Position numbers: made by a program
NCBI GenBank assembly: GCA_027339965.1
Contig: DAHWNL010000049.1
Coordinates: forward strand, 30,542 to 94,541
Source of the DNA: Granulicella sp.
Lineage (GTDB): Bacteria > Acidobacteriota > Terriglobia > Terriglobales > Acidobacteriaceae
Direction of reading: 5' to 3'
Length of the DNA: 64,000 nucleotides
In this document: positions 12,001-27,000 of the stretch, piece by piece
How positions within the stretch are numbered: the first letter of the stretch is position 1
Layout of the letters: every line of letters begins with the position of its first letter

Positions 12001-15000
12001 CAGTGCCAAATTCAACGCCAAAGCGCAGGTTGAGCAGGAAAAGGCTACGGAACTTGATATCACCCTCGTCACAGACCAGGCGTTTTACGACGCCTTGACC
12101 GCACAGGCGGTTCTCAAAGTGGCCAAGGAGACGGTCTACCAGCGCGAATCCACGGATGAGCAGGTCCGCGCGTTGACCAAGTTCAAGCTGCGTTCGGACG
12201 TCGATTTGAGCTTCGCCGACGTCCAGGTCTCTCGCGCCAAACTCTTCTTACTGGATGCGCAAAATAACGAAGAAACAACAATGGCCGCTCTCGATGATGT
12301 TCTTGGCCAGGAAAATAGCACACAGTACTCTCTGGTGGATGAGACAAATAACCATCCTGAACCAGCACCGGATGATCCGGAAGCCATGGTCAAGCTTGCC
12401 TTTACCCAACGGCCTGACCTTGCAGCCTTGAACTCCACCTATGCAGCCGACCAGCATTTCGCCCGAGCAGAGCGCGACCTATGGATGCCAAGCCTCACCG
12501 CTCTCGGAGCCGCTGGGGGAGAACCTATTCGTGGAGACAAAATCCAGCGGTCTTGGTACGCTATAGCTGGTGTAAATCTCAGCGTGCCGATTTTCAACGG
12601 CTTCCTTTTCAACGCTGAAGAGAGTCAGGCAAAACTCCAGGCCAAAGCGGCGCAAGAGCAGGTGCGCAACCTGACGGATAATATTGCGCGTGACGTGCGT
12701 ACTGCGGTCTTCAATGCGCAAACCGCATATCAGAAGATTGCGGTCACCGAGCAGATGCTTTACCAGGCCAATTATTCCCTTGCGCTTGCCTCAGCACGTT
12801 ACAAGATGAATTTGAGCGGCATCGTGGAGATAACTCAAGCTCAACTGGAGCAAGCCCAGGCTGCGGTCGACAATGCGACCGCCCGTTACAACTATCAGAC
12901 AGCCATGGCGATTTTGCATTATGAGCTCGGCGAGTGAGGAGTCGGCGGCCAGGAAAAGCACCCGACAGAACAGACGGTCTTGTTGAGATTCAATCCATCT
13001 GATCCTCGGGTTGCGGAACGATCCAGGAGGAAACCGTAGCCCTAGATATCCAGCAACGCCATCGATCTCAGGCCCTGATGAAGTTTCATATCTCTTGGCG
13101 CAAGTCGGTTCTACGCTGAACCATTCCGTCAAATCGGGGCCTCTATAACAGCCATCAACCACCATCCGCGGCAGCTTCAACCGGAGAACCGTTTGGTATG
13201 CAGAAAGAGATTCGATTCAAGCAGATCCTGTTCGCTACGGACTTTCTGGAGAGCTCTCGCCTGGCTCTGGACTACGCAGTGGCCATCGCCAACCACTTTC
13301 AAGCTGCGATCGTCATGCTACACGTGGTAGAACTTATGCCTGCTGCCCTAGAGGCAGAGTTGATCACCAAGACGTCTAGCCAGACCCGCCAGGCCGCATA
13401 TCGTCGTCTCGCCGCGCTCGCAGAGGGCGTGCGACGCATGGGGTTGAACGTCTCCATCCTCGTTGAAGAGGGCGTTCCTTCCGACGTCATCCTTCAGGCC
13501 GCGAAACAGACGCAAGCCGATCTTTTGGTCCTCGGAGTCCATGGAGTTCACCGAGGATTGAGTCACCTTCTGATCGGCTCAAATACGGAGAAGCTCTTGC
13601 TCAGCGCCGAGTGCCCTACCCTGACTGTGGGCTCTCATGTGCTCTCCGGTGTCGATCTCTCGCTTCCCATGGACACAATTTTCTACTTTTCCGACTTCAC
13701 GCCCGAGGCCGCAGCCGCAGCGCCCTATGCGGTCTTCTTGCGTCAGGAGTTCCGAGTGCCTGTGGAAGTCTATCAGCTCTTAACCTCCGCAGCCCTCAAA
13801 GACCAGAACCTGAGCAGGAATCTAGCGGAGGAGTACTGTGCCCGGATGAAATCCATCTTTGGGGAAGACCAGGCAGAGTGGTGTACGCCGGACTTCCAGC
13901 TCAAAAATGGATTGGATCTGGACCGCATGATCACGATAGCCCAGACCCAGCCATCTGGATTGATCGTCATGGGCGTTCAGACCGAATCCCACCTCGGGCG
14001 TCATCTTCATACCAGCCTTGCCTATCATGTGCTCTCAAAAGCGGCTAGTCCCGTTCTTTCCATTCGCAACCTTGCCGTGGAGCCGCAGCCTCAGAATGCA
14101 TAAGCGGCATCCATACCGCGCTCTGCCATCAGAACTCACCTGGTTTGCAGTCTTTGCTCCCACTCCATGATTGCAGCCTGCTCGGCGGCTGCAAATGTAA
14201 GGTGTCCCACCTTACGCCCCGGCCTTGCTTCTTTGCCGTAGTCGTGACGAAACAAGCCTGGAAACGCTGCCGTTTCCGCCTCGGGAGGCATGCTCCCTAT
14301 GCAGTTCAACATGACGGTCGGTCGACTTTCTGTGCTGCCCAGTTCCCTTCCTGATATCGCCCGCAGATGGTTTTCAAACTGCGAGGTCGCGGAACCTTCG
14401 ATGGTCCAATGACCTGAATTATGAACCCTGGGCGCCATCTCATTGGCCAAGAGATTGCCGTTCGCAACAAAAAACTCGACCGCCAGAATGCCTACATAGT
14501 TGAGCCTCTTCAGTAAGATCGTCATATGGCGCTCGGCTTTCTGCTGCAAATCCTCATGCAGAAATGGAGCGCTGGAGACGCGCAGGATGCCCTCCCGGTG
14601 ATAATTCTCGACCAAGGGATAAAAGACGGTCTCTCCACTCCTGGCGCGCGCGGCAATCAGGGATACCTCTGCATCGAAACCGATAACTCCCTCTAGAATG
14701 CAGGGAACCTCTCCGACAGATGCCCATGCAGCGGCCGCCTCTTCGCTATGGTGCAGGCGCACCTGACCTTTGCCGTCGTATCCGAGCCTCCTGGTTTTGA
14801 GAATTGCAGGCCGTCCGATCTCCCTGATGCCTTGATGCAGATCAATCAGACTATCCACCGCAACAAATGGCGCAGTGGCAACACCGCAGTCCCTGAAGAA
14901 GCGCTTCTCCAACAAGCGCTCCTGAGCGATTCCAATTGCACCCGCATTGGGATAGAGATTCAACCCCTGGAGCACATCAGCGTGGATGTTTTCGCTCTCT

Positions 15001-24000: not shown

Positions 24001-27000
24001 GAAGAAACATATACCTTCTCCGCGCCCTGCTCCCGGACCATTGCGATGATCTCGCGAATGGTGGTCCCTCGAACAATGGAGTCATCCACCAGCAGCACCT
24101 TTTTTCCTTGAAATGCTTGTGGAATCGGGTTCAGCTTGCGGCGAATCGACTGCCTGCGCTGGGCCTGTCCCGGCATGATAAAGGTTCGCCCCACATAGCG
24201 ATTCCTGATTAACGCATCCCGGTAAGGCAGGTTCAATCTTGTAGCAATCTCCTGGGCTGCAATGCGGCTTGTGGACGGAATGGGAATCACCACATCGATA
24301 GGAACGTGAGACCACTCACGCTGAATCTTCTCTGCGAGCTTGGCGCCCATGTTGATACGGCACTGATAGACCGACGCTCCATCCACCACCGAATCGGGAC
24401 GAGCCAGATACACGAACTCAAACAGACATGGCGCCTTTTCATGCGCCTGCAAACTAACATGACGATAAACCGTACCCTCCAGGTCGATAAAGATCACCTC
24501 TCCCGGAGCAAGATCGTGATCCAGACGGAATCCGCTGACTTGCAGCGCCACGCTCTCCGACGCGACCATATACTCGAGCTCCCGCGCGTCATCCGGCCCT
24601 CCCTTCTCCCCGCGAACTCCAAACACCAGCGGCCGGATGCCGTGCAGATCGCGGAAGGCGATCAATCCCACGCCGGCAACCATGGCGACCACCGCATAGC
24701 CGCCCTTGCAACGGCGATGCACCTCCTCCACAGCCGCAAAGATATCGAATTCATTGGGATGAACCGCGCCACGGCGCGCCAGCGCGTGAGCAAAGACGTT
24801 CAGCATCACCTCGGAGTCTGAACTAGTGTTCAGATGGCGCATGTCCGTCCGAAAAAGGCTATCCACAATCTCCGAGACATTGGTCAGATTTCCGTTATGG
24901 GCAAAGATAATGCCGTAGGGAGAGTTGACATAAAACGGCTGCGCCTCCGCGACAGACGCGCAGCCGGCTGTGGGATAACGCACATGCCCCACCCCCATAT
25001 CGCCCAACAATCGCGCCATGGTCTCAGCGTCAAAGACGTCGGTCAGCAGACCATTGCCCTTTTCCAAATAAAACCTGTCCTCAAAACAAGTGGCAATCCC
25101 GGCAGCATCCTGGCCACGATGCTGGAGCATCGAAAGGCTCTCGTAGATCACCGCGCTTACCGGACTATGGCCAAAGACCCCAACAATACCGCACATGATT
25201 CCTCACTCGTCTGCAACGCAACCGTTGGATCTTACCCCTTGGGACGTCTGAAGACGTTCCCTTCCTTGCCGGCCAATTGACAGCGCACATAAAACTGCAT
25301 CGAGGCCACTCTTATCTCGGGAGCATTCGGCATGACAGCAGAAAAGGAGAGAAAAAGATTCAAATAGTGGTTATAACATCATGAAACTAAATTACTTATC
25401 ATCAGTAGCTCGAGAACAGGCCCGAACCTCCCTCATTCCTCATGCTTGGTTCTCCTCTTATCATCTCCCATTCGCGTGAGGAAAGTCATCCCGTTCGAGC
25501 TCGAACGGTCGGGTTCAAGCCTAGAAATTGAAGGCGAGCCCTCCAAGAATTGCGCGTGGAACCTGACTGAGAAGCAACGTCTGGCCGTTGGGCGAATTTG
25601 CAGGTTGTTCGCCCTGATGGAGCAGGTTGGTCGCCTCCAGCAGCATATCTAGACCCTGAGGCAACAAACCTCCCGACCACAATCGTTGCCGTATATAGAA
25701 GTTGAGGTAGGCCTCGTCCGGCAGGACGTTGAACTCATTTACCTGGGTCAATGTACTCGCGGGTTGCCAACGGTACTCGATCCGCAGTTCCGTTCCCGTG
25801 CGAAGAATCTTGCCCCGCAACGCCGCGCTTGCCGCCTCCGCCATCTCTTTGCCCAGGCCGGCAGGCAGGTTTTCCAGCGTCAAGCCGTCTTTGGCTTTCC
25901 AAGCAGTTCCCCGGTCGTACTCGATCCACGCCGCTAGAGCCGAAGTCCAGGTTTGCAGGATGCAGACGCTCAGGCCGCTTGCTGCATAACCGGGTCCTGC
26001 CAACTCAAAGATTCCTGTCGTGCGGTCTGCGATCGCCTGGGTCAACTGCAACGCCGAGTTGTTCATGACCCCGCTGCCGGCGATCGCTGCATAAGGAACT
26101 CTGTCCAGGTACGCTGAGGCCCTTAAGGCGCGGCTTCCAAAACGGCGGCTTACGGAGATCTCTTGGTGCATACCGCTGTCATTGCGAGGGCGCCCATGCC
26201 CATTGGTTACGACGCTCAACGTCGGATTCAAGTCATCCATGTCATCGGAACGCTGCAACTCTCGCCCCATGGCATAGCGATACTCCACCACGAGATTCTG
26301 CCCCCAAGGTATGGCGACGCGGAAGTACGGTTCCATCTCAAACTGCGCCTGCTCCAGCCTTTCGCCCTGAGCCAATGCGCCCACATCGATCAGAAGGGTG
26401 TTGCCAATGGGTATCCGCTCCGCACTGGCAACGCGTAGCAACTGGAAGCCTCCACCCGGACTTCCATCCGTCAACTCCGGTTGCGACTGGAAGCTGCCGG
26501 CCAGCCGCGTGCTTCCACCCATTGGGTTTGCGATTCCATAGCCGGCTACCAGCGCGACTGAAGGCTGAGCGGAGGTTGACGCTGTCCGTATCTCGCCGAG
26601 ATCTGCACGCAGCACAGCCGCATTCCCATTTCCCATGGTCCGGTTCAGCAGGAGAGTCTGATGGGGCCCGCCATTTCCAAATACTCCGTCTGCGTTGGAG
26701 AACAGAAGCCTTCGCTGTGAAGATGCTCGGTGAGGTCGTTCGGTACTGGATGAAGCGGGAACTCCGTCGTCCGGATCCACCCATTGCAGAAGAGGGCGGC
26801 TGGCCATGGCGCGCAGGGTCCACTTCCAGTCATCGACTGGATCGTCAGCTCGGCGACGCTGAGCTGGAAGCCAATTAGCGACGTCGAAGATACCCTGCAA
26901 CGTGAGGTTAGCCACTGTTTGCACGTCAGGACGCAGACGGACGTCATTGCGCACCAAGGGAAGGAAGAAAGCGGCTGACACACGCAGTTCATACTTCCCA

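What a model noticed while it worked through the whole genome (the two positions that open the first line are those of the whole stretch)
14136..25196. Granulicella replaced its purine pathway with a foreign eight-gene operon
purF, single-chain large purL, purM, purC, purD, purN, purE and purK form one operon of proteobacterial type, while the small PurL/PurQ/PurS system and native purF of the family are gone. The operon is genus-wide, so a whole core pathway was swapped in the ancestor; a second, unlinked purM and purH remain.
Evidence so far: Large PurL is 58% identical to Pseudomonas, PurC 62% to Legionella. None of 50 genomes of other family genera has it; 48 have only small PurL/PurQ-sized matches at 24-42%. 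88 of 100 Granulicella have it, 53 of 53 good-quality ones counting this genome. PurS found in 0 of 41 Granulicella. Family purF genes match g1206 at only 36-39% (6 loci, call 65). The same eight genes in the same order occur in an Alphaproteobacteria MAG at 45-59% (L327, call 69). Paper search empty.
(Added by a program. Inside this text positions count along the whole contig: contig position 30,542 is position 1 of the stretch shown here. "Call 12" and the like, gene names such as g00115 and contig names such as C1 are that model's own, and its searches are not shown. The text may have been shortened before it was handed on; [...] marks where a part breaks off. The agent that wrote the report below was given it as the finding of a first reader that could run no searches.)

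Follow-up and report, generated by a model that had tools for sequence, protein, structure and literature searches.

The report
Imported purine operon that jumped twice
A genus of acid-soil bacteria swapped most of its own purine-making genes for one imported eight-gene block related to that of Francisellaceae, the block then jumped again into a second genus, and in both cases an old enzyme gene was kept with a damaged active site, giving a rare natural replay of how a core pathway gets replaced.

Summary
The operon is real: purF-purL-purM-purC-purD-purN-purE-purK, each passing its NCBIfam cut-off. Large PurL is in 96 of 101 genomes of the genus, PurS in 0 of 101; 0 of 395 genomes drawn evenly from 141 other genera of the family have large PurL. 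Trees, missing until now, make Francisellaceae-type genes the sister group for PurL, PurF, PurM, PurC and PurK; that family holds the same order split into two loci. Three corrections. (1) It is not confined to Granulicella: 12 of 301 genomes of a second genus (NCBI labels: Terracidiphilus) carry a purK-less copy nested inside Granulicella (AU p=2e-5), and lost PurS too. (2) The swap was gene by gene after coexistence: some genomes dropped the imported purD or purN and kept the native one. (3) purB and purH were not part of it. Two new leads: the native PurM is kept under purifying selection (dN/dS about 0.1) with eroded active-site motifs in both lineages, and the imported PurE changed HLPG to HLAG where purK is missing, the motif of purK-less relatives. 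Known process (xenologous displacement by a transferable operon); unusually complete, replicated case; nothing found in print. No function was tested.

The parts
23667..25196 (-). purF, amidophosphoribosyltransferase, gamma/beta-proteobacterial type, Cys1 present
   Evidence: TIGR01134 476.7 bits, cut-off 350; sister to Francisellaceae-type PurF, 93/84; family copies 38-41%
19754..23656 (-). purL, single-chain large FGAM synthase, about 1300 aa; start at 23656 chosen from the junction (the ORF tool extends it to 23815)
   Evidence: NF003672 1900 bits; glutaminase Cys and HPER motifs present; sister to Francisellaceae-type PurL, SH-aLRT 99 under LG+C20
18636..19682 (-). purM, imported AIR synthetase with intact motifs
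   Evidence: TIGR00878 347.7 bits; 44-47% to family PurM, against 50-57% for the C52 copy; DG.GTK, LHTNG, HITGGG present
17681..18634 (-). purC, SAICAR synthetase of the PRK12607 type
   Evidence: NF009251 404.9 bits, cut-off 371; sister to Francisellaceae type, FastTree 1.0
16362..17684 (-). purD, GAR synthetase of a clade shared with archaea and some Gammaproteobacteria
   Evidence: TIGR00877 403 bits; best 50%-cluster representative is a Francisellaceae PurC-PurD fusion; other genera 32-41%
15772..16365 (-). purN, GAR transformylase
   Evidence: TIGR00639 179 bits; N.HPS motif present
15221..15772 (-). purE, class I-type N5-CAIR mutase (AAHLPG); true start may lie downstream
   Evidence: TIGR01162 219.3 bits; motif table
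14136..15224 (-). purK, N5-CAIR synthetase; absent from the copy in the second genus
   Evidence: TIGR01161 332.7 bits
25197..25520 (-). upstream spacer; no Rfam riboswitch, no minus-strand sigma-70 consensus; regulation unknown
25521..29292 (-). host flank (566-aa unknown and GWxTD-domain gene); shared only by one subclade of the genus, not part of the transferred block

Best explanation
A compact gammaproteobacterial pur operon, sharing an ancestor with the two pur loci of Francisellaceae, entered the ancestor of this genus as one block and supplied working copies of the steps from PRPP to SAICAR (shown: genes, order, motifs, trees; inferred: one event, activity). Both gene sets coexisted and were then sorted gene by gene: small purL, purQ, purS, purF, purD, purE, purK and usually purN were deleted, a few lineages dropped an imported gene instead (shown as end states; order inferred). 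Later the block moved from one Granulicella subclade into one clade of genus g63 (Terracidiphilus labels), beside pyrE-pyrF and without purK, and the sorting was repeated (shown by nesting and host markers). The likeliest driver is transferability, not new chemistry: a linked, self-sufficient block can displace scattered native genes (inferred). The old purM is kept in many genomes of both lineages as a protein under selection but probably no longer as the working AIR synthetase (selection and motif loss shown; loss of activity inferred).
For: Distribution: 96 of 101 in genus, 0 of 395 in an even family sample, PurS 0 of 101. Same order in all 20 + 9 genus loci read, one lacking purN. Sister group Francisellaceae type for PurL (99, 34 other gamma rows), PurF (93/84 with six named standard rows), PurM, PurC, PurK (1.0, 1.0, 0.998). 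purM-purC(D)-purD-purN-purE-purK in 9 loci of that order and purF-purL adjacent in 6 of 6, against 0 of 50 other gamma purL loci. Imported genes track the native purM as host marker, Mantel rho 0.74, 0 of 2000 permutations. Second transfer: 12 of 301, nested with 100/100 support, AU p=2.4e-5, host GlmS 85% to g63 against 69-74% to the window's genus, PurS 0 of 5. Sorting: G880, G929, G936 lack imported purD and hold only the native one, G939 and G943 the reverse; G002 lacks imported purN and keeps a native purN with intact NIHPS, while three genomes keep a native purN with that motif broken.
Against: Sister-group status does not name the donor: Francisellaceae-type rows are AT-rich long branches, PurF support is under 95, PurD and PurN have two eukaryote-like metagenome rows nearer, PurN is unresolved (0.6-0.7) and PurE places the Francisellaceae rows inside the genus. 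The operon sits in at least six different flank contexts among 26 genus genomes, which also fits movement within the genus. Other large genera were sampled at six genomes or fewer, the depth that missed g63, so more recipients may exist. No expression or activity data. No mobile element marks the block. Native PurK exists in 46 of 141 family genomes outside the genus, so PurK gain is not an obvious benefit; no selective advantage was identified.
Confidence: 0.8

Rival explanations
1. The block arrived once in a sub-lineage and then swept through the genus by repeated lateral transfer, as it demonstrably did into g63; genus-wide presence is a sweep, not ancestry.
For: Flanks differ among subclades; a within-family jump is shown; deep nodes of the operon tree are weakly resolved.
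Against: Operon and native purM distances agree (rho 0.74) and the same species pairs recur in both trees; imported proteins are as diverged as 59-75% within the genus; no good-quality member retains PurS.
Confidence: 0.12
2. The eight genes came in several transfers from different donors (standard gamma purF/purL; Legionellales-like purM/C/D/N) and were assembled into an operon inside Granulicella.
For: The set is a mosaic: purF/purL resemble standard gamma genes (57-60%) while purM/C/D/N resemble genes that elsewhere go with small PurL.
Against: The same mosaic, in the same order, exists in Francisellaceae-type genomes and is the sister group for five of eight genes, so the assembly predates the split.
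Confidence: 0.04
3. The old purM is simply a slowly decaying leftover with no role; low dN/dS reflects recent relaxation or selection against misfolding of a still-expressed protein.
For: It was not found in 24 of 55 genomes, including complete ones; its dN/dS exceeds that of the imported copy in 14 of 18 comparable pairs; N-terminal erosion is progressive.
Against: Frames are open in all 26 copies read; dN/dS stays 0.08-0.15 in most pairs at dS 0.2-1.1; change is concentrated on catalytic motifs, and the Asp-to-Asn/His change is shared by 42 of the 45 closest homologues. This rival concerns the side finding only.
Confidence: 0.45
4. The g63 copies are binning or classification errors (Granulicella contigs in other bins).
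For: All are MAG-type assemblies as far as the tables show; 12 of 301 is few.
Against: Several are 99-100% complete with 6-30 contigs, the operon lying on contigs of 0.9 and 2.4 Mb; they lack PurS; the copies form one clade with its own insertion site and purK loss; independent metagenome contigs show the same.
Confidence: 0.03

Closest known systems
Francisellaceae pur loci (purM-purCD-purN-purE-purK and purF-purL)
   Same: Same gene types and same order within each half; sister group in five gene trees. Adjacent purM and purCD locus tags in Francisella are seen in a table of PMC3796476 (passages).
   Different: Two unlinked loci there, one block here; purC and purD are fused in most members (unfused in G858, G859); GC 32-35% against 56-62%.
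Xenologous gene displacement and the selfish-operon model (Lawrence and Roth 1996; Omelchenko et al. 2003)
   Same: Foreign orthologues displace native genes; a linked cluster moves as a unit. Model read as summarised in PMC10138114 (passages); the two originals were seen only as reference entries.
   Different: Here eight genes of a core pathway, a non-orthologous change of enzyme architecture (three-subunit to single-chain FGAM synthase), a second jump of the same block, and reciprocal retention of native genes.
Large PurL replacing small PurL/PurQ/PurS in Methanocorpusculum labreanum
   Same: Horizontally acquired large PurL with loss of purS and purQ (PMC3261824, passages).
   Different: One gene in one organism, clostridial type; here a whole operon fixed in a genus of about 100 species.
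Class I-like PurE without PurK (methanogens and others)
   Same: Class I-like sequence and no purK, read as reliance on high CO2 or direct carboxylation (PMC3261824, passages).
   Different: Here the purK-less state is derived from a known purK-linked ancestor, with an identifiable Pro-to-Ala change in the AAHL(P/A)G loop.

Membership tests
de novo purine operon (PRPP to SAICAR) | each gene passes its equivalog cut-off | tested here: met
   8 of 8
de novo purine operon (PRPP to SAICAR) | catalytic motifs intact | tested here: met
   PurF Cys1, PurL Cys/HPER, PurM, PurN, PurE, PurD motifs (the motifs themselves are recalled)
de novo purine operon (PRPP to SAICAR) | co-transcription | tested here: inconclusive
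   overlapping start/stop codons; no transcript data
large (single-chain) PurL | one chain of about 1300 aa with N-terminal, synthetase and glutaminase parts; no PurS/PurQ | tested here: met
   NF003672 positions 1-1290 of 1290; PurS 0 of 101
xenologous displacement | gene groups with a distant lineage rather than with the host family | tested here: met
   purC had no native family rows in its tree
xenologous displacement | native orthologue lost | tested here: met
   met for small purL, purQ, purS, purF, purD, purE, purK, purN in G000; not met for purM in 29 of 55 genomes
xenologous displacement | replacement in situ at the native locus | tested here: not met
   native genes lie at several separate loci; the block sits elsewhere and in varying flanks
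mobile element / genomic island | integrase, att repeats, tRNA target or deviant composition | tested here: not met
   no tRNA nearby, host genes on both sides, GC 55-61% like the window, GC3 in the lower 7-20% of long ORFs; this PurD type is not on plasmids; repeats were not searched
class II PurE (AIR carboxylase), for the g63 copy | class II sequence signature | tested here: not met
   sequence stays class I-like, 45 of 52 informative sites donor-type; the class II loop signature is recalled
class II PurE (AIR carboxylase), for the g63 copy | converts AIR and CO2 to CAIR without PurK | not testable with these tools
   needs assay or complementation
pseudoenzyme, for the old PurM | catalytic residues lost while the protein stays under selection | tested here: met
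   g63: Asp of DGVG replaced in 5 of 5; dN/dS 0.08-0.14. Granulicella: Asp replaced in only 3 of 21, N-terminal motif lost in 15 of 21
pseudoenzyme, for the old PurM | no activity and a separate role | not testable with these tools
   needs assay and knockout

The most novel reading that the evidence does not exclude
The two replacements are a replicated natural experiment exposing two undescribed pieces of biochemistry: PurM has a second, non-catalytic role that the foreign enzyme cannot supply, so the native protein is kept as a pseudoenzyme each time; and a class I PurE becomes usable without PurK through a small loop change (AAHLPG to AAHLAG, with changes after SAHRTP), a minimal route from mutase towards PurK-independent carboxylation.
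Probability: 0.3. Interest if true: 0.82.

Novelty: new variant of a known kind. Interest (0 to 1): 0.64.

Why it matters
Core biosynthetic pathways are thought hard to replace. Here one was replaced across phyla and then again across genera, with intermediate states preserved in many genomes. [quoted passage not shown]

Tried and rejected
PurK gain as the benefit: rejected (second recipients lack purK). Terracidiphilus labels as mislabelled Granulicella: rejected. Gene conversion from native purE as source of HLAG: not favoured, native-like sites are scattered, 7 of 52, one native sequence only. Two metagenome contigs nearest for PurD/PurN (L331, L353) are PurD-PurN fusions in eukaryote-like DNA, not operon donors. 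Plasmid vehicle: none for this PurD type. Riboswitch or promoter: none found. Expression: no RNA holder listed. One search's motif count failed by a pattern error and was redone. (no PurK in g63 recipients) had no positive control; G162 is also negative with the family model, whose controls ring. Earlier findings of the scan: nothing bearing. Literature searches found no report of this operon; subscription journals and supplements were not searched.
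Full report
Observation. Eight ORFs on the minus strand at 14136-25196 are purF, large purL, purM, purC, purD, purN, purE and purK; each passes its NCBIfam cut-off and most junctions overlap by 1-4 nt. In the 98.9%-complete genome each is single-copy except purM. Family-type small purL, purS, purF, purD, purE, purK and purN loci match only the operon genes; purH and purB lie on other contigs. The genus name is supported by PurK proteins of this type that NCBI labels Granulicella mallensis; genus here means the GTDB genus (g1), and that GTDB splits other named Granulicella species into separate genera is recalled, not tested.

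Distribution. Large PurL matched in 96 of 101 genus genomes, 53 of 53 good-quality ones (includes unpublished G023). PurS matched in 0 of 101, with 12 of 14 named controls positive and 5 of 5 complete family genomes positive. PurD of other genera is 32-41% identical against 59-89% inside the genus. Gene order is the same in 20 of 20 and 9 of 9 genus loci read, G002 lacking purN; one subclade has unrelated genes inserted between the pur genes.

Origin. The best 50%-cluster representative for PurD is a 769-aa PurC-PurD fusion labelled Francisellaceae. This PurD type was in 8 of 300 Gammaproteobacteria scored. Nine loci of the Francisellaceae-type group read purM-purC-purD-purN-purE-purK, and purF directly precedes purL in 6 of 6, against 0 of 50 other gamma purL loci with 1.5-6 kb flanks: the operon equals these two loci joined. 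Trees agree: PurL groups with the Francisellaceae type inside Gammaproteobacteria (SH-aLRT 99, LG+C20, 46 rows chosen from 81), PurF likewise with six named standard genes present (93/84), PurM, PurC and PurK at 1.0, 1.0 and 0.998 (FastTree). Against: PurD and PurN have two eukaryote-like contigs nearer, PurN is unresolved, PurE puts the Francisellaceae rows inside the genus, the purC tree had no native rows, and the Francisellaceae rows are compositionally biased. So the genes are gammaproteobacterial and share an ancestor with the Francisellaceae set; the donor itself is not identified. Imported-gene distances follow those of the native purM in 16 genomes (rho 0.74, 0 of 2000 permutations), which favours one early gain, although flanks differ among subclades.

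A second jump. PurD homologues labelled Terracidiphilus at 72% led to metagenome contigs with a seven-gene version whose flanks are more distant from G000 (GlmS 69%, GlmU 65%, FtsK 73%) than purF (83-85%). That GlmS is closest to genus g63 (85%, against 74% for the genus member sampled). In g63, 12 of 301 genomes carry large PurL at 74-77%, 239 only the small type, 50 no match. Of 11 loci read, 10 lie beside pyrE (the other has too little flank) and none has purK. They nest inside Granulicella (100/100; holding the genus together is rejected, AU p=2.4e-5; 18 rows, five genes). They lack PurS (0 of 5) and have only the imported purF (2 of 2) and purE (2 of 2). Their native purM has Terracidiphilus-labelled relatives at 81-83%. 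The even family sample had missed this because it took about five g63 genomes; other large genera may hide more.

How the swap went. G880, G929 and G936 lack the imported purD and hold one native purD; G939 and G943 hold only the imported one. G002 lacks imported purN and keeps a native purN with NIHPS intact; G006, G097 and G022 keep a native purN with that motif broken (imported purN was checked only for G022). This is what coexistence followed by gene-by-gene loss predicts, and it indicates that the imported copies are the working ones.

The old purM. A second, unlinked purM is in 29 of 55 genus genomes of at least 90% completeness; 24 gave one match, one none, and G076's two matches are a duplicated operon region. 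It is the native type. Of 21 copies aligned, all have open frames, 15 lost the N-terminal YxxxGVD motif, 19 changed GVGTK, 3 lost the Asp of DGVG. In g63 recipients 5 of 5 keep it with Asn or His in place of that Asp, which aligns with the Asp of solved PurM structures; that this is E. coli Asp65 is recalled numbering, and PMC3261824 (passages) lists Asp65 as a proposed, invariant active-site residue. Among 120 homologues, 42 of the closest 45 have Asn/His and 71 of the next 75 have Asp (their genomes were not checked for the operon). dN/dS is 0.08-0.14 in 10 g63 pairs and 0.02-0.21 in 9 Granulicella pairs, against 0.03-0.13 for the imported copy (one pair saturated). Selection without the catalytic residue suggests a second role, but absence from about 44% of the genus shows it is dispensable; slow decay remains a fair rival.

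PurE without PurK. Native PurK was found in 46 of 141 family genomes outside the genus, not in g63's representative. The loop reads AAHLPG in 30 of 30 imported copies with purK, 13 of 13 native copies of PurK-positive family genomes and 16 of 16 gamma copies beside purK; it reads AAHLAG in 16 of 16 PurK-negative family genomes, the native g63 copy, 11 of 11 g63 recipients and 6 of 6 metagenome contigs. The recipients' PurE is donor-type at 45 of 52 informative sites, so the change is convergent. Against: these rows are kin and amount to a few events, and 4 of 13 named outgroup loci without an adjacent purK keep LPG (their genomes were not searched for purK). PMC3261824 (passages) describes class I-like PurE without PurK as relying on high CO2; PMC10484210 (passages) notes only subtle active-site differences between the classes. 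Neither passage mentions this residue.

Mechanism and novelty. Most likely a linked, self-sufficient block displaced scattered native genes because it could move in one step; no new chemistry is needed, PurK gain is ruled out as the general benefit, and no selective advantage was identified. No island marks remain and composition is near that of the host. Xenologous displacement and operon transfer are known (PMC10138114, passages), as is a single large-PurL replacement in an archaeon. Searches for this case found nothing (listings and abstract starts only; subscription papers and supplements not seen). I rate it a new variant of a known kind: a genus-wide, cross-phylum replacement of eight core genes, repeated once, with two testable biochemical side findings. 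Interest 0.64.

Noticed in passing
G000:C52:19779-about 20960 (outside the window); L236-L255; L492-L497: Native purM kept with open frame, eroded active-site motifs and dN/dS about 0.1 in both recipient lineages; in G000 it has a long Pro/Ala-rich N-terminal stretch and no ATG start.
   Followed up: yes
L472-L482, L297, L305, L317, L333, L367: Seven-gene (or six-gene) copy of the operon in genus g63, divergent from pyrE-pyrF, so purine and pyrimidine genes share one upstream region.
   Followed up: yes
L238, L240, L249: Native purN beside the old purM with its catalytic motif broken but frame open, a second candidate dead-enzyme relic.
   Followed up: partly
L094, L096, L102: In one subclade unrelated genes (including a toxin-antitoxin-like pair in L094 and a 904-aa protein in L102) sit between the pur genes while the order is kept; several of these genomes also split the PurL match near residue 600, suggesting an insertion.
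   Followed up: no
L277-L292: The order that holds the Francisellaceae-type genomes has three purine gene sets: the mosaic set, a small-PurL operon with the same PurD type, and a standard PurD; the mosaic may be an acquisition there too. G858 and G859 have unfused purC and purD.
   Followed up: partly
L331:589-2562, L353:969-2954: Eukaryote-like contigs with a PurD-PurN fusion whose PurD groups nearest to the imported PurD.
   Followed up: no
PurK is patchy in the family (46 of 141 genomes outside the genus) and the PurE loop residue tracks it.
   Followed up: partly
window 25521-27221 and 31882-34722: Two long ORFs (566 and 946 aa); the first has no NCBIfam match and is conserved upstream of the operon in one subclade; the second was not examined.
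   Followed up: no
P0138-P0176: This PurD clade is often fused: PurD-PurN, PurD-PurN-PurM, PurF-PurD, PurD-HAD hydrolase.
   Followed up: no
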